Shown here in pieces: positions 1-64,000 of a DNA stretch of 64,000 bases. The translations under genes were made by a program, and so were the position numbers. Location: NCBI RefSeq assembly GCF_055900595.2, contig NZ_CM148325.1; one strand, written 5' to 3'. The stretch's first letter is position 1. Every line of letters starts with the position of its first letter. The notes under the pieces were generated by a model. It searched no databases, was not told the origin of the DNA, and saw only the letters and a list, made by a program, of their open reading frames with translations.

Positions 1-68
1 CGCTACGGCGTTTCACTTCTGAGTTCGGCATGGGGTCAGGTGGGACCACCGCGCTAAGGCCGCCAGGC
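1..68 (-). rRNA. rrfA: 5S rRNA, 3' portion cut by window edge
   Basis: Reverse complement matches the E. coli 5S rRNA sequence (…GCCGAACTCAGAAGTGAAACGCCGTAGCG…); its 5' end (TGCCTGGCGGCC) lies at about 68. Confidence 0.9.
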
Positions 69-162
69 AAATTCTGTTTCATCAGACCGCTTCTGCGTTC
101 TGATTTAATCTGTATCAGGCTGAAAATCTTCTCTCAATCCGCCAAAACATCTTCGGCGTTGT

Positions 163-3066
<2,904 letters not shown>

Positions 3067-3250
3067 CTCACAACCCGAAGATGTTTCTTTCGATTCATCA
3101 TCGTGTTGCGAAAATTTGAGAGACTCACGAACAACTTTCGTTGTTCAGTGTTTCAATTTTCAGCTTGATCCAGATTTTTAAAGAGCAAAACTTCGCAGTG
3201 AACCTTTGCAGGTACACTCTGAAGTATTTTTTATTTAATCACTACAGAGA

Positions 3251-3326
3251 TGGTGGAGCTATGCGGGATCGAACCGCAGACCTCCTGCGTGCAAAGCAGG
3301 CGCTCTCCCAGCTGAGCTATAGCCCC
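3251..3326 (-). tRNA. alaT: tRNA-Ala (anticodon UGC), spacer tRNA
   Basis: Reverse complement is GGGGCTATAGCTCAGCTGGGAGAGCGCCTGCTTTGCACGCAGGAGGTCTGCGGTTCGATCCCGCATAGCTCCACCA. Confidence 0.95.
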
Positions 3327-3368
3327 ATAACATGTAGTTAAAACCTCTTCAAATTTGCGGTGCAAATT

Positions 3369-3445
<77 letters not shown>

Positions 3446-3513
3446 GTAGAGGTTTTACTGCTCATTCTCATCAGACAATCTGTGTGAGCACTGCAAAGAA
3501 CAGTTCTTTCAGG

Positions 3514-5055
<1,542 letters not shown>

Positions 5056-18527: not shown

Positions 18528-20770
<2,243 letters not shown>

Positions 20771-51602: not shown

Positions 51603-52493
51603 TCAGGCTGCCAGATCATCGTTTCCGATGGAAGCATAATAAGCTTTTTCTGCTTCTGCCGGAGGAGTATGGCCCAGCCTTCCCAGCAATCGTCGATTGT
51701 TATACCAGTCCACCCACGTTAGTGTGGCCAGTTCCACTTCTGCACGGTTTTTCCAGCTCTTACGGTGTATTACCTCCGCTTTGTAAAGACCATTGATGCT
51801 CTCAGCCATCGCGTTGTCATACGAGTCGCCTGTACTCCCTGTTGATGCCAGTAATCCGGCTTCTTTTAGTCGCTCCGTATAGGCCAGTGACACATACTGA
51901 GAGCCTTTATCGCTGTGATGGATGGTGCCAGACGGACGACGGGCCCACAACGCCTGCTCCAGCGCATCCAGCACGAATGTCGTTTCCATAGACGATGAGA
52001 CCCGCCACCCCACGATGTATCCGGCAAACACATCAATGATAAACGCCACATAGACGAAGCCCTGCCATGTGCTGACGTAAGTAAAATCAGCCACCCACAG
52101 CTGGTCAGGTCGTTCTGCCACGAACTGACGGTTTACGCGGTCGCCTGCGGCAACGGCTTTCCGGCTGATGGTCGTACGGACCTTTTTACCCCGGAGAACA
52201 CCGGCAAGTCCCATAACCGCCATGAGACGTGCCACTGTACATCTGGCCACCCTGATTCCTTCCCGTAACAACTGACGCCAGACTTTACGCACACCGTACA
52301 CCTGATGATTTTCATCGTATACGCGCTGTATCTCTCTCTTCAGCCAGTCGTCGTGCTGCGCACGGGCACTGCGTTTATCCGGATGATGTCGCTGTTGCTG
52401 ACAATGGTAATACGTTGACGGGGCAATATGCAGTTCGCTGCATACCGGTCCGACCCCGTACTGCTCACGCAGCTTATCCAGCAGTGGCATCAT
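51603..52493 (-). CDS. IS3-family transposase OrfB (DDE integrase core)
   Basis: 296 aa; rve-type catalytic region (…[24 protein letters not shown]…[10 protein letters not shown]…); 4-bp overlap with orfA consistent with programmed -1 frameshifting. Confidence 0.88.
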
Positions 52494-52816
52494 TTTTTCC
52501 AGAGGCGGTCGAACTCCGCCTTCGCAAAATAAGCGGAAGCCTGGCGAAGGATATCGTTACTGCGGCGCAGTTCACGATTTTCACGTTCCAGCTCTTTCAG
52601 ACGCTGACGTTCAGCGCTGGTGAGCCCACCATCACCGCCCCCGGTATCCCGCTCATGCTGGCGAACCCAGACACGCAGAGTCTCCGGCGTACAGCCAATC
52701 TTTGGAGCAATGGAACAAATTGCCGCCCACTGTGAGTCATATTCATCCTGACTTTCCAGAACCATACGAATCGCCCGCTGACGGACTTCGGGGGAAAAAC
52801 GAGTATTTTTAGTCAT
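52490..52816 (-). CDS. IS3-family transposase OrfA (HTH)
   Basis: 108 aa [61 protein letters not shown]…; matches the IS629 OrfA sequence as I recall it. Confidence 0.88.
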
Positions 52817-59114: not shown

Positions 59115-60056
59115 ATGTTAGACAATGTTTTAAGAATTGCCACACGCCAAAGCCCACTTGCACTCTGGCAGGCACACTATGTCAAAGACAAGTTAATGGC
59201 GAGCCATCCGGGTCTGGTCGTTGAACTGGTACCGATGGTGACGCGCGGCGATGTGATTCTTGATACGCCGCTGGCGAAAGTAGGCGGAAAAGGTTTATTT
59301 GTTAAAGAGCTGGAAGTCGCGCTCCTGGAGAATCGCGCCGATATCGCCGTACATTCAATGAAAGATGTGCCGGTTGAATTCCCGCAAGGTCTGGGGCTGG
59401 TCACCATTTGCGAGCGTGAAGATCCTCGCGATGCCTTTGTGTCCAATAACTATGACAGTCTGGATGCGTTACCTGCAGGCAGTATCGTCGGGACGTCCAG
59501 TTTACGTCGCCAGTGCCAACTGGCTGAACGCCGCCCGGATCTGATTATCCGCTCCCTGCGCGGCAACGTCGGCACTCGCCTGAGCAAACTGGATAACGGC
59601 GAATACGATGCCATCATTCTTGCCGTAGCCGGACTAAAACGTTTAGGTCTGGAGTCACGCATTCGCGCCGCGTTGCCACCCGAGATTTCTCTTCCGGCGG
59701 TAGGACAAGGTGCGGTCGGTATTGAATGCCGCCTTAATGATACTCGCACTCGCGAGCTGCTTGCCGCGCTGAATCACCACGAAACTGCACTGCGTGTTAC
59801 CGCAGAACGCGCCATGAATACCCGTCTCGAAGGCGGATGTCAGGTGCCAATTGGTAGCTACGCCGAGCTTATTGATGGCGAAATCTGGCTGCGTGCGCTG
59901 GTCGGCGCGCCGGACGGTTCGCAGATTATTCGCGGTGAACGCCGCGGTGCGCCGCAAGATGCCGAACAAATGGGGATTTCGCTGGCAGAAGAGCTACTGA
60001 ATAACGGCGCGCGCGAGATCCTTGCTGAAGTCTATAACGGAGACGCCCCGGCATGA
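59115..60056 (+). CDS. hemC: porphobilinogen deaminase (hydroxymethylbilane synthase)
   Basis: 313 aa from [27 protein letters not shown]…; the ORF-track start at 59094 is a seven-codon extension. Confidence 0.95.
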
Positions 60057-60793
60057 GTATCCTGGTCACCCGCCCGTCTCCCGCTGGAGAAGAGTTAGTG
60101 AGCCGTCTGCGCACACTGGGGCAGGTGGCCTGGCATTTTCCGCTGATTAAGTTTTCTCCGGGTCGACAATTACCGCAACTTGCTGATCAACTGGCAGCGC
60201 TGGGGGAGAGGGATCTGTTGTTTGCCCTCTCGCAACACGCGGTTGCTTTTGCCCAATCACAGCTGCATCAGCAAGATCGTAAATGGCCCCGACTACCTGA
60301 TTATTTTGCCATTGGACGGACCACCGCACTGGCGCTACATACCGTAAGCGGACAGAAGATTCTCTACCCGCAGGATCGGGAAATCAGCGAAGTCTTGCTA
60401 CAATTACCTGAATTACAAAATATTGCGGGCAAACGTGCGTTGATATTGCGTGGCAATGGCGGTCGTGAGCTGATTGGGGATACCCTGACGGCGCGCGGTG
60501 CTGAGGTCACTTTTTGTGAATGTTATCAACGATGCGCAATCCATTACGATGGTGCAGAAGAAGCGATGCGCTGGCAATCCCGCGAGGTGACGACGGTCGT
60601 TGTTACCAGCGGTGAAATGTTGCAGCAACTCTGGTCGCTGATCCCACAATGGTATCGTGAGCACTGGTTACTACGCTGTCGACTATTGGTCGTCAGTGAG
60701 CGTTTGGCGAAACTCGCCCGGGAACTGGGCTGGCAAGACATTAAGGTCGCCGATAACGCTGACAACGATGCGCTTTTACGGGCATTACAATAA
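60053..60793 (+). CDS. hemD: uroporphyrinogen-III synthase
   Basis: 246 aa starting [32 protein letters not shown]…; 4-bp overlap with hemC. Confidence 0.93.
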
Positions 60794-60814: not shown

Positions 60815-62020
60815 ATGACGGAACAAGAAAAAACCTCCGCCGTGGTTGAAGAGACCAGGGAGGCCGTGGACACCACGTCACAACCTGTCGCAACAGAAAA
60901 AAAGAGTAAGAACAATACCGCATTGATTCTCAGCGCGGTGGCTATCGCTATTGCTCTGGCGGCGGGCGTCGGTTTGTATGGCTGGGGTAAACAACAGGCC
61001 GTCAATCAGACTGCCACCAGCGATGCCCTGGCTAACCAACTTACGGCACTGCAAAAAGCCCAGGAGAGCCAAAAAGCCGAGCTGGAAGGCATTATCAAGC
61101 AACAAGCTGTACAGCTTGAGCAAGCGAATCGTCAGCAAGAAACGCTGGCAAAACAGCTGGATGAAGTCCAACAAAAGGTCGCGACTATTTCCGGCAGCGA
61201 TGCTAAAACCTGGCTGCTGGCTCAGGCTGATTTCCTGGTGAAACTCGCCGGAAGGAAGCTGTGGAGCGATCAGGACGTCACGACCGCTGCAGCGTTGCTG
61301 AAAAGTGCAGATGCCAGCCTGGCGGATATGAATGACCCGAGTCTGATTACCGTTCGTCGGGCAATTACCGATGATATCGCCAGCCTTTCTGCGGTATCGC
61401 AGGTGGATTATGACGGCATCATCCTTAAGCTGAACCAGCTTTCTAATCAGGTAGATAACCTGCGTCTGGCCGATAATGACAGCGATGGTTCACCAATGGA
61501 TTCCGACGGTGAAGAGCTTTCCAGTTCCCTCAGCGAATGGCGTATCAATCTACAAAAAAGCTGGCAGAACTTTATGGACAACTTCATTACGATTCGCCGT
61601 CGTGATGACACCGCCGTACCACTGTTAGCACCGAATCAGGATATCTATCTGCGCGAAAATATTCGCTCCCGCCTGCTGGTCGCGGCACAAGCCGTACCGC
61701 GTCATCAGGAAGAGACTTACCGCCAGGCGCTGGAGAATGTCTCCACCTGGGTACGTGCTTACTACGATACTGATGATGCCACCACCAAAGCGTTCCTCGA
61801 CGAGGTGGACCAGTTAAGTCAGCAAAATATCTCGATGGATCTCCCGGAAACCCTGCAAAGCCAGGCGATGCTGGAAAAACTGATGCAGACCCGCGTGCGT
61901 AACCTGCTGGCACAACCGGCAGCAGGGACAACGGAAGCTAAACCTGCACCTGCACCTGCACCTGCACCTGCACCTGCACCGCAAGCTGATACTCCGGCAG
62001 CCGCGCCGCAAGGAGAATAA
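60815..62020 (+). CDS. hemX: HemX (uroporphyrinogen-III C-methyltransferase-like membrane protein)
   Basis: 401 aa starting [24 protein letters not shown]…; single TM segment, coiled-coil, C-terminal (PA)n tract. Confidence 0.9.
61943..61972 (+). repeat. tandem hexanucleotide repeat (CCTGCA)x5 inside hemX
   Basis: Five perfect CCTGCA units plus one degenerate unit (CCGCAA), encoding the Pro-Ala tract [13 protein letters not shown]. Confidence 0.9.
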
Positions 62021-62022
62021 CC

Positions 62023-63219
62023 ATGCTAAAAGTGTTATTGCTCTTTGTGTTGCTGATTGCGGGGATCGTGGTCGGCCCGATGATTGCCGGTCATCAGGGG
62101 TACGTGCTGATCCAGACCGATACCTACAATATCGAAACCAGCGTCACGGGCCTGGCGATCATTTTGATTCTGGCGATGGTAGTGCTGTTTGCCATTGAGT
62201 GGCTACTGCGGCGGATCTTCCGCACAGGCGCACACACCCGTGGGTGGTTTGTCGGACGTAAGCGTCGCCGTGCCCGTAAGCAGACCGAACAGGCGCTGCT
62301 GAAACTAGCGGAAGGCGATTATCAGCAAGTTGAAAAGCTGATGGCGAAAAATGCCGATCACGCTGAACAACCGGTGGTGAACTATCTGCTGGCTGCCGAA
62401 GCCGCGCAACAACGCGGTGATGAAGCACGCGCCAACCAACATCTGGAACGCGCAGCGGAGCTGGCCGGCAACGACACAATTCCGGTAGAAATCACCCGTG
62501 TACGTCTGCAACTGGCCCGTAATGAAAACCATGCAGCACGTCACGGCGTTGATAAGCTGCTGGAAGTTACGCCACGCCATCCGGAAGTATTACGTCTGGC
62601 GGAACAGGCGTATATCCGCACCGGTGCATGGAGTTCGCTGCTGGATATCATCCCATCAATGGCAAAAGCCCACGTTGGCGATGAAGAGCATCGTGCAATG
62701 CTGGAACAACAGGCATGGATTGGCCTGATGGATCAGGCGCGTGCCGATAACGGTAGCGAAGGTTTGCGTAACTGGTGGAAAAACCAAAGCCGGAAAACGC
62801 GTCATCAGGTGGCGTTACAGGTGGCAATGGCGGAACATCTTATTGAATGTGACGATCATGATACTGCCCAGCAAATTATCATCGACGGCCTGAAACGCCA
62901 GTATGACGATCGCCTGCTGCTGCCGATCCCGCGTCTGAAAACCAATAACCCGGAACAGCTGGAAAAAGTGCTGCGCCAACAGATCAAAAACGTGGGCGAT
63001 CGCCCGTTGTTGTGGAGCACACTGGGTCAGTCGCTGATGAAGCACGGCGAATGGCAGGAAGCATCGCTCGCCTTCCGCGCGGCGCTGAAACAACGTCCGG
63101 ACGCCTACGATTACGCATGGCTTGCCGACGCGCTGGACAGACTGCACAAGCCGGAAGAAGCCGCAGCGATGCGTCGCGATGGCTTGATGCTAACCTTACA
63201 GAATAACCCGTCACAGTAA
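62023..63219 (+). CDS. hemY: HemY (TPR-containing heme biosynthesis-associated membrane protein)
   Basis: 398 aa starting MLKVLLLFVLLIAGIVVGPMIAGHQGYVLIQTD…. Confidence 0.92.
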   Translation: MLKVLLLFVLLIAGIVVGPMIAGHQGYVLIQTDTYNIETSVTGLAIILILAMVVLFAIEWLLRRIFRTGAHTRGWFVGRKRRRARKQTEQALLKLAEGDYQQVEKLMAKNADHAEQPVVNYLLAAEAAQQRGDEARANQHLERAAELAGNDTIPVEITRVRLQLARNENHAARHGVDKLLEVTPRHPEVLRLAEQAYIRTGAWSSLLDIIPSMAKAHVGDEEHRAMLEQQAWIGLMDQARADNGSEGLRNWWKNQSRKTRHQVALQVAMAEHLIECDDHDTAQQIIIDGLKRQYDDRLLLPIPRLKTNNPEQLEKVLRQQIKNVGDRPLLWSTLGQSLMKHGEWQEASLAFRAALKQRPDAYDYAWLADALDRLHKPEEAAAMRRDGLMLTLQNNPSQ

Positions 63220-63223
63220 TCTA

Positions 63224-63252
63224 TATCGCCTCGTTCAGAGGCGATATTTTTT
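63224..63252 (+). terminator. rho-independent terminator of the hemCDXY operon
   Basis: TATCGCCtcgttcagaGGCGATA followed by TTTTTT, immediately after the hemY stop. Confidence 0.7.
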
Positions 63253-63258
63253 ACCAGG

Positions 63259-63858
63259 ATGTCAAAATTGCGCACGCCGTCCCGCTATCTTTTCCGCTTG
63301 CCATCGCATGAAATTACTCCTTTTCGGGCAACGCTCTTTTTAATCTTGTTGATATGTGCCGCTCTGGCTGGCGTAAGTTGGCTGATTATTTCCTTTGTGC
63401 GTACGGGCAATACATTCATCTTCTGGTTAACACTTTTTATTGGGTATCTGATAGCTGCGGCGAAGCAGGAAAAAATCAAGCTCCTCAAGAAGTACCGAAT
63501 CATGGCAGATAAACGTCGGGTACGCTCCATTTGCCAGTTCGCCCGCGAATTTGACACCTACACCGTAGATACATGGGTGATTCGTGCGGTGTGGGATACC
63601 TTGCAAGGAAACGGCTATATCGATTACCCACTGCCACTGAAAGCCGATGATATACTGGACGATGATCTGGATTTGGTGCGCGACGCAGTCGAGTTAGAAG
63701 AGCTGGTTGAAGATACCGCTGCTCGTTGCGGGCGCGATCTATGCGGAATAGAAGAGAATCCGTTTCTTCCCATCGTCACGGTAGGCTCTCTTGTAAGAGT
63801 TTTAAACGCGCAACCGATGACCCAGGAGCGACGTAACCAGTTCTTTATTCGGTCATAA
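63259..63858 (+). CDS. hypothetical membrane-anchored protein with acidic C-terminal domain
   Basis: 199-codon ORF; predicted two TM helices (ATLFLILLICAALAGVSWLIISF; FIFWLTLFIGYLIAAA) then an acidic region (DDILDDDLDLVRDAVELEELVED); weak or absent RBS at the first ATG, so the real start is uncertain. Confidence 0.4.
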   Translation: MSKLRTPSRYLFRLPSHEITPFRATLFLILLICAALAGVSWLIISFVRTGNTFIFWLTLFIGYLIAAAKQEKIKLLKKYRIMADKRRVRSICQFAREFDTYTVDTWVIRAVWDTLQGNGYIDYPLPLKADDILDDDLDLVRDAVELEELVEDTAARCGRDLCGIEENPFLPIVTVGSLVRVLNAQPMTQERRNQFFIRS

Positions 63859-64000
63859 AAAAACGCCTGCTCTTATTACGGAGCAGGCGTTAAAACAGGT
63901 CTGTATGACAACAAGTGGGTGCTTCACTCAACGTTGTGTCCATGGTGTCTGATGAGGCATAAGCGACATCTGTCAGTGGACGATAAGCACCGTAAACGGC
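63859..64000 (-). ncRNA. glmZ: small RNA GlmZ (3' portion; 5' end beyond window)
   Basis: Reverse complement of the window end matches my recollection of the GlmZ 3' half, including the terminator AACGCCTGCTCCGTAATAAGAGCAGGCGTTTTTT; location next to hemY agrees with the known hemY-aslA intergenic position. Confidence 0.75.

What the first reader, a model, noticed from the sequence alone, without database searches (positions are those of the whole stretch)
63859..64000. GlmZ sRNA 3' portion, convergent with the hemCDXY operon
The window end matches my recollection of the 3' half of GlmZ on the minus strand, including its intrinsic terminator. GlmZ activates glmS translation and is processed by RNase E via RapZ. 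The 5' end and promoter lie beyond the window.
Basis: partly seen in the sequence, partly recalled or inferred. Interest (0 to 1): 0.3.

Follow-up and report, generated by a model that had tools for sequence, protein, structure and literature searches.

The report
GlmZ small RNA, cut by window end
The last 144 bases of the window are the 3' two-thirds of GlmZ, a well-studied E. coli small RNA that switches on the cell-wall precursor enzyme GlmS, so the finding is correct and ordinary.

Summary
Window 63857..64000 (minus strand) matches Rfam GlmZ_SraJ at 139.3 bits (gathering score 60, E 1.4e-35), model positions 64-214, cut at the 5' end by the window edge. It is 100% identical to nt 64-207 of the curated E. 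coli K-12 glmZ gene (b4456). It is at least 99% identical in 5,424 of 5,426 complete E. coli genomes.

The window holds 70% of the 207-nt RNA, not half. It includes:
- the central stem-loop SL2, which RapZ and RNase E recognise
- the 26-nt single-stranded region with the glmS-pairing site and the RNase E cleavage positions
- the terminator

Stem-loop 1 and the promoter lie outside the window. In a genome identical to the window over its last 901 bases, the full RNA scores 218.4 bits.

One correction concerns the neighbourhood. GlmZ is not directly convergent with hemY here. A 196/199-aa accessory gene of unknown function lies between them, and its stop codon overlaps the GlmZ U-tail. This gene is present in 693 of 5,424 E. 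coli genomes and absent from K-12. Its predicted structure is a hydrophobic helical hairpin followed by an acyl-carrier-protein-like domain that lacks the modified serine.

Verdict: already known, low interest.

The parts
63857..64000 (-). GlmZ sRNA, nt 64-207 of 207. The 5' 63 nt (stem-loop 1) and the promoter lie beyond the window end.
   Evidence: Rfam RF00083 at 139.3 bits, E 1.4e-35, model 64-214/214, cut at the 5' end. 100% identical to K-12 glmZ b4456 nt 64-207.
63918..63991 (-). Central stem-loop SL2 (GlmZ nt 73-146). This module is bound by RapZ and is decisive for RNase E cleavage. The RapZ-contacting residues A125 and A127 are at window 63939 and 63937.
   Evidence: Structure line of the Rfam alignment. 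The module folds on its own at -21.2 kcal/mol. Roles are from PMC4737144 and PMC9841335.
63892..63917 (-). 26-nt single-stranded region (GlmZ nt 147-172). It carries the glmS-pairing sequence, the Hfq site and the RNase E cleavage positions.
   Evidence: Unpaired in the Rfam consensus, apart from the small 3-bp hairpin the consensus draws inside it, and largely unpaired in the MFE fold. Its length of 26 nt matches the published figure (PMC4737144).
63907..63914 (-). glmS-pairing block 1, UUGUUGUC (GlmZ nt 150-157). The RNase E cuts at 153/154 and 155/156 fall at window 63911/63910 and 63909/63908.
   Evidence: RNAduplex against the glmS leader of a genome identical to the window over its last 901 bases. 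Cleavage positions are from PMC4737144.
63895..63901 (-). glmS-pairing block 2, GACCUGU (GlmZ nt 163-169).
   Evidence: The two blocks together give -20.5 kcal/mol with leader positions -48..-21, and 11 of 500 shuffled leaders reach that energy.
63857..63891 (-). Intrinsic terminator SL3. The stem-loop is at 63862-63891 and the U7 tail at 63857-63863. The U-tail also contributes to Hfq binding.
   Evidence: Terminator scan: 11 pairs, 7 G-C. Fold energy -19.4 kcal/mol. Hfq role from PMC4737144.
63259..63858 (+). Context, not part of GlmZ: an accessory ORF of 199 aa from ATG 63259, or 196 aa from the RefSeq start TTG 63268. Its TAA stop codon (63856-63858) overlaps the last 2 nt of the GlmZ U-tail.
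63223..63252 (+). Context: terminator-like hairpin plus T-run directly after the hemY stop codon (hemY is 62023..63219).
   Evidence: Terminator scan: 10 pairs, 5 G-C, followed by TTTTT.

Best explanation
The window ends inside the glmZ gene of an E. coli chromosome. The RNA is read from the minus strand. Its transcription start and sigma-70 promoter lie 63 nt and more beyond the window end. The window contains nt 64-207.

The published mechanism is inferred to apply here because the sequence is identical. Full-length GlmZ, helped by Hfq, pairs through its 26-nt single-stranded region with the glmS leader. This opens a hairpin that hides the ribosome-binding site and so raises GlmS synthesis when glucosamine-6-phosphate is scarce. 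When the metabolite is plentiful, the adaptor RapZ binds stem-loops 1 and 2 and presents the RNA to RNase E. RNase E cuts inside the pairing sequence (153/154 and 155/156) and inactivates the RNA. The decoy sRNA GlmY counteracts this by sequestering RapZ.

Shown here: identity of the sequence, its structure modules, the terminator, complementarity to glmS from a genome identical to the window over its last 901 bases, and the gene neighbourhood. Inferred from the literature: expression, protein binding and regulation.
For: - Rfam match of 139.3 bits against a gathering score of 60, E 1.4e-35.
- The full-length RNA scores 218.4 bits over model positions 1-214 in a genome that matches the last 901 bases of the window at 100%.
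- 100% identity to curated K-12 glmZ (b4456) over nt 64-207.
- At least 99% identity in 5,424 of 5,426 complete E. coli genomes, while the flanks vary from 90 to 99%.
- The published neighbourhood of aslA, glmZ and hemY is kept (PMC4152352).
- Terminator with 11 pairs and a U7 tail.
- A two-block duplex of 8 + 7 bp with the glmS leader, at leader positions -48..-21, -20.5 kcal/mol.
- The published cleavage positions fall inside pairing block 1 (PMC4737144).
Against: - Nothing contradicts the identification.
- The 5' 63 nt and the promoter are not in the window and were read from other genomes.
- In the 9 genomes that share the window lineage's promoter segment, the -10 hexamer is CATACT instead of the published CATAAT (PMC3045617). 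Expression strength in this strain is therefore not certain.
- The pairing test is only modestly above chance: 11 of 500 shuffles reach the observed energy.
- A whole-molecule duplex test was uninformative.
Confidence: 0.97

Rival explanations
1. The sequence is the paralogous decoy sRNA GlmY, which belongs to the same Rfam clan, and not GlmZ.
For: GlmY and GlmZ are homologous and share Rfam clan CL00011. Lower-scoring overlapping matches from that clan existed and were suppressed in the output.
Against: - GlmZ_SraJ won the clan competition at 139 bits.
- The sequence is identical to K-12 glmZ b4456.
- The single-stranded region is 26 nt and complementary to glmS. In GlmY it is 12 nt and not complementary (PMC4737144).
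- The neighbours are aslA and hemY. The published glmY neighbourhood is purL and the glrK-yfhG-glrR locus (PMC3045617, PMC4152352).
Confidence: 0.005
2. In this particular strain the gene is weakly expressed or silent. Either the -10 hexamer variant or convergent transcription from the inserted ORF would reduce or abolish GlmZ output.
For: - The closest genomes read tggCATACT where the published promoter is tggCATAAT.
- Mutating the right half of the -10 motif abolished expression in K-12 (PMC3045617).
- The adjacent ORF has no canonical terminator of its own on the + strand, so read-through would run antisense into glmZ.
Against: - The variant keeps the most important -10 positions (A at 2, T at 6) and the TG of an extended -10.
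- The RNA body is perfectly conserved, as expected under continued selection.
- The ORF starts immediately after a hemY terminator, and no promoter-like site was found in 63000-64000. Strong convergent transcription is therefore unlikely.
- The promoter lies outside the window and was read from proxy genomes.
Confidence: 0.03
3. The conserved hairpin at 63857-63891 is there chiefly as a two-way terminator for the + strand genes (the ORF and hemCDXY), and the resemblance to an sRNA is incidental.
For: The hairpin lies exactly at the end of the + strand ORF, with an A-run on its upstream side.
Against: - The match covers 144 nt, including SL2 and the single-stranded region, not only the hairpin.
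- On the + strand the hairpin is followed by TTAAAACAGG, which is not a T-run, and the scan finds no + strand terminator there.
- hemY has its own terminator at 63223-63252.
Confidence: 0.01

Closest known systems
GlmZ (SraJ/RyiA) of Escherichia coli K-12, gene b4456; Rfam RF00083 GlmZ_SraJ
   Same: The sequence is identical over all 144 nt present in the window (nt 64-207). Strand, terminator, single-stranded pairing region, SL2 and the aslA/hemY neighbourhood are the same.
   Different: - The window holds only 70% of the gene.
- In this strain a ~640-nt segment carrying an accessory ORF replaces the 79-nt hemY-glmZ spacer of K-12.
- The closest genomes have one base change in the -10 hexamer, outside the window.
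- The K-12 RefSeq feature is drawn as 172 nt and stops before the terminator. The Rfam match in these genomes spans 207 nt, including the terminator.
GlmY (Rfam RF00128, same clan CL00011)
   Same: It is a homologous sRNA with the same three-stem-loop layout, and RapZ binds it (PMC4737144).
   Different: GlmY has a 12-nt single-stranded region without glmS complementarity, is not cut by RNase E/RapZ, and lies at a different locus. The window sequence has the GlmZ versions of all these features.
Acyl carrier proteins (for the neighbouring ORF only)
   Different: - No Pfam PP-binding match at E up to 1.
- No serine in the stretch where the phosphopantetheine attachment site would be expected (residues 127-160 contain none).
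- An N-terminal hydrophobic helical hairpin precedes the domain.
- The ORF is not filed as an ACP.

Membership tests
GlmZ_SraJ (RF00083) | Covariance-model score above Rfam's gathering threshold | tested here: met
   139.3 bits against 60 for the truncated copy in the window. 218.4 bits for the full copy in a genome identical to the window over its last 901 bases.
GlmZ_SraJ (RF00083) | Orthology with the experimentally studied E. coli K-12 glmZ (b4456) | tested here: met
   144 of 144 nt identical to K-12 nt 64-207.
GlmZ_SraJ (RF00083) | [quoted passage not shown] | tested here: met
   SL2 and SL3 with U7 are in the window. SL1 lies outside the window and was seen only in proxy genomes.
GlmZ_SraJ (RF00083) | 26-nt single-stranded region complementary to the glmS leader, which distinguishes GlmZ from GlmY | tested here: met
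   8 + 7 bp duplex with leader positions -48..-21 of glmS from a genome identical to the window over its last 901 bases, -20.5 kcal/mol. 11 of 500 shuffled leaders reach this energy. The length of 26 nt is as published (PMC4737144).
GlmZ_SraJ (RF00083) | Location between aslA and hemY, on the strand opposite to both | tested here: met
   and PMC4152352, with an extra ORF between hemY and glmZ in this strain.
GlmZ_SraJ (RF00083) | Escherichia-type sigma-70 promoter ATGTTA-N15-tggCATAAT | tested here: inconclusive
   The promoter is outside the window. The closest genomes read ATGTTA-N15-tggCATACT, one mismatch in the -10 hexamer (PMC3045617).
GlmZ_SraJ (RF00083) | Binding by RapZ and Hfq, cleavage by RNase E at 153/154 and 155/156, and activation of glmS translation | not testable with these tools
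   Inferred from sequence identity to the RNA used in the published experiments (PMC4737144, PMC9841335).
Acyl carrier protein / PP-binding (neighbouring ORF) | Small helical-bundle carrier-protein fold | tested here: met
Acyl carrier protein / PP-binding (neighbouring ORF) | Conserved serine (DSL motif) for phosphopantetheine attachment | tested here: not met
   There is no serine in residues 127-160, and no conserved serine in the family alignment around the start of the second carrier-fold helix.
Acyl carrier protein / PP-binding (neighbouring ORF) | Sequence match to the Pfam PP-binding profile | tested here: not met
   No such hit at E up to 1. None of the 58 homologues has a precomputed Pfam domain.

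The most novel reading that the evidence does not exclude
In about 13% of E. coli genomes, including this one, an accessory gene sits so close to glmZ that its stop codon overlaps the GlmZ U-tail. It encodes a protein with a predicted membrane-anchoring hairpin and an acyl-carrier-like domain that has no attachment serine, and it has no terminator of its own on the + strand. Read-through of its mRNA would be antisense to GlmZ. It could therefore modulate GlmZ termination or abundance, adding a strain-specific layer to GlmS control. This lineage's -10 variant might add to that effect.
Probability: 0.04. Interest if true: 0.35.

Novelty: already known. Interest (0 to 1): 0.08.

Why it matters
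GlmZ is a thoroughly characterised regulator of cell-envelope precursor synthesis, and finding it at its usual locus in an E. coli window adds nothing new. The practical points are small:
- Automatic RefSeq (PGAP) annotation leaves glmZ unannotated in the four non-K-12 records inspected.
- The curated K-12 feature is drawn 35 nt short of the terminator.
- The segment between hemY and glmZ is a variable spot that in a minority of strains holds an uncharacterised gene.

Tried and rejected
- **Whole-molecule duplex test.** RNAduplex of GlmZ nt 64-207 against the glmS leader was uninformative: 476 of 500 shuffled leaders scored at least as well, because long duplexes ignore internal structure. I restricted the test to the single-stranded region.
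- **Link between the ORF family and amino-sugar genes.** One Pseudomonas solani homologue lies two genes from glmS and three from glmU. Five other contexts show no such link: a gap between rlmC and artJ, toxin-antitoxin/integrase islands, an array of small ORFs with Imm27, and a site beside an Mrr nuclease. I rejected the link as coincidence.
- **Family searches for the ORF.** Pfam, NCBIfam, PADLOC and PHROGs scans found nothing meaningful.
- **-10 variant and the ORF.** I asked whether the CATACT variant travels with the inserted ORF. It does not. Two genomes carrying other ORF alleles that I inspected keep CATAAT, and only 9 genomes share the window lineage's 71-nt promoter segment, which includes the variant.
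- **First script.** It failed because a locus file had not synced. I reran it with the sequence pasted in.

Full report
**The observation**

The last 144 bases of the window, 63857..64000 read on the minus strand, match the Rfam covariance model GlmZ_SraJ (RF00083). The score is 139.3 bits against a gathering score of 60. E is 1.4e-35 in a 2-kb search and 4.6e-34 over the whole window. The match covers model positions 64-214 of 214 and is flagged as cut at the RNA's 5' end, as expected for a gene running off the window edge. The fragment alone folds at -44.5 kcal/mol, better than all 200 dinucleotide shuffles (z = -3.3). A consensus scan finds the terminator: an 11-bp stem with 7 G-C pairs at 63862-63891, followed by a T-run.

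**What organism and what gene**

The last 901 bases of the window match several complete E. coli chromosomes at 100%. In one of them (NZ_CM128605.1, locus L001) the same Rfam model matches end to end: 207 nt, 218.4 bits, model positions 1-214. The curated K-12 MG1655 record annotates glmZ (b4456) between aslA and hemY. The window is identical to K-12 nt 64-207 at every position, and divergence begins three bases past the U-tail. The window therefore holds 70% of GlmZ, not half. A search with only the 144 nt finds at least 99% identity in 5,424 of 5,426 complete E. coli genomes. The flanking DNA is less conserved, at 90-99%.

**Anatomy in window coordinates**

| Feature | GlmZ nt | Window coordinates |
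|---|---|---|
| Stem-loop 2 | 73-146 | 63918-63991 |
| RapZ-contacting A125 and A127 (PMC9841335) | 125, 127 | 63939, 63937 |
| 26-nt single-stranded region | 147-172 | 63892-63917 |
| Terminator stem-loop 3 | 173-202 | 63862-63891 |
| U7 tail (first two U close the terminator stem) | 201-207 | 63857-63863 |
| RNase E cuts (PMC4737144) | 153/154, 155/156 | 63911/63910, 63909/63908 |

The first 63 nt (stem-loop 1) and the promoter are beyond the window.

**Target pairing**

I fetched glmS from the same proxy genome (locus L003, glmS at 19349) and read its 161-nt glmU-glmS spacer. [quoted passage not shown] UUGUUGUC (nt 150-157) pairs with GACAACGA, and GACCUGU (nt 163-169) pairs with ACAGGUU, for -20.5 kcal/mol in total. 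Eleven of 500 dinucleotide-shuffled leaders reach that energy. This is modest statistical support. It fits the published mechanism, in which GlmZ pairs with one half of a hairpin that masks the glmS ribosome-binding site (PMC4152352). The RNase E cuts fall inside block 1, matching the published statement that cleavage removes the pairing site. A duplex test with the whole molecule was uninformative.

**Mechanism**

The steps below come from the literature and are inferred here from sequence identity.
- Hfq binds the single-stranded region and the U-tail and promotes pairing with glmS (PMC4737144).
- RapZ binds stem-loops 1 and 2 and presents the RNA to RNase E, which cuts in the single-stranded region. 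Stem-loop 2 is decisive for cleavage, and stem-loop 3 can be replaced by another terminator (PMC4737144, PMC9841335).
- GlmY sequesters RapZ when glucosamine-6-phosphate is low (PMC4152352, PMC7073468).
- The cleavage product also competes for RapZ (PMC6602413).

None of this can be tested with sequence tools.

**Context and a correction**

The orientation is right:

| Gene | Window coordinates (+ strand) |
|---|---|
| hemC | 59115-60056 |
| hemD | 60053-60793 |
| hemX | 60815-62020 |
| hemY | 62023-63219 |

However, hemY has its own terminator-like hairpin and T-run at 63223-63252. An additional ORF runs from 63259 (ATG, 199 aa) or 63268 (the RefSeq TTG start, 196 aa) to 63858. Its TAA stop codon overlaps the last two bases of the GlmZ U-tail. 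In K-12 a 79-nt spacer takes the place of this ~640-nt segment, and the sequences become identical again three bases beyond the GlmZ 3' end. Only 693 of 5,424 genomes carry at least 80% of the 901-base query, which requires the ORF segment. Among them the query matches at about 99-100% or about 90% identity.

**The ORF (side observation)**

It has no hit in Pfam, NCBIfam, PADLOC or PHROGs. A database search finds 58 relatives, all unnamed and without Pfam domains. They occur in Escherichia, and same-length relatives at 30-38% identity occur elsewhere, including Pseudomonas solani. The family alignment shows a conserved core.

The gene neighbourhoods of six distant homologues share nothing, so the single case near glmS in Pseudomonas is most likely coincidence. 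The ORF's function remains unknown. No promoter-like site was found in 63000-64000, and the ORF starts just after the hemY terminator, so even its expression is uncertain.

**Promoter (outside the window)**

The published Escherichia glmZ promoter is ATGTTA-N15-tggCATAAT (PMC3045617). The genome identical to the window over its last 901 bases reads tggCATACT. Only 9 of 5,276 genomes share that exact 71-nt promoter and 5' segment. Other ORF-carrying genomes keep CATAAT. Whether this weakens transcription is untested.

**Verdict**

The finding is correct, and the feature is a textbook sRNA with a sequence identical to the reference. Novelty: already known. Interest is low. The most novel reading still open is strain-specific interference between the abutting accessory ORF and GlmZ, and I consider it unlikely.

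Noticed in passing
window 63259..63858 (+): An accessory 196/199-aa ORF lies between hemY and glmZ, and its stop codon overlaps the GlmZ U-tail. It is present in 693 of 5,424 complete E. coli genomes and absent from K-12. It matches no known family. Its predicted structure is a hydrophobic helical hairpin followed by an acyl-carrier-protein-like domain without the attachment serine.
   Followed up: partly
L001 4965..5005 (-), just beyond window position 64000: The glmZ -10 hexamer reads CATACT in the window-like lineage, against the published K-12 CATAAT. Only 9 of 5,276 genomes share the exact 71-nt promoter and 5' segment (PMC3045617).
   Followed up: partly
window 63223..63252 (+): A strong terminator-like hairpin with a T-run follows directly after the hemY stop codon, only ~10 nt before the accessory ORF. 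This leaves no room for an ORF promoter.
   Followed up: no
L004 2433..2604 (K-12 MG1655 3986432..3986603): The K-12 RefSeq glmZ feature is drawn as 172 nt and ends before the terminator, whereas the Rfam match in these genomes spans 207 nt. The four PGAP-annotated E. coli records I inspected do not annotate glmZ at all.
   Followed up: no
window 20165..20416 (-): Full-length match to the Rfam Erse small RNA, 307 bits.
   Followed up: no
window 52419..52535 (-): Match to the Rfam ALIL pseudoknot, 121.5 bits. From my own knowledge this is a frameshift element of IS3-type insertion sequences, so it suggests an insertion sequence in the window.
   Followed up: no
window 1..5055 (-): A ribosomal RNA operon: 16S, two tRNAs, 23S and the start of 5S, which is cut by the window start.
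   Followed up: no
L007 5001..5582: A Pseudomonas solani homologue of the accessory ORF lies two genes from glmS and three from glmU. This is not repeated in five other contexts and is judged a coincidence.
   Followed up: yes
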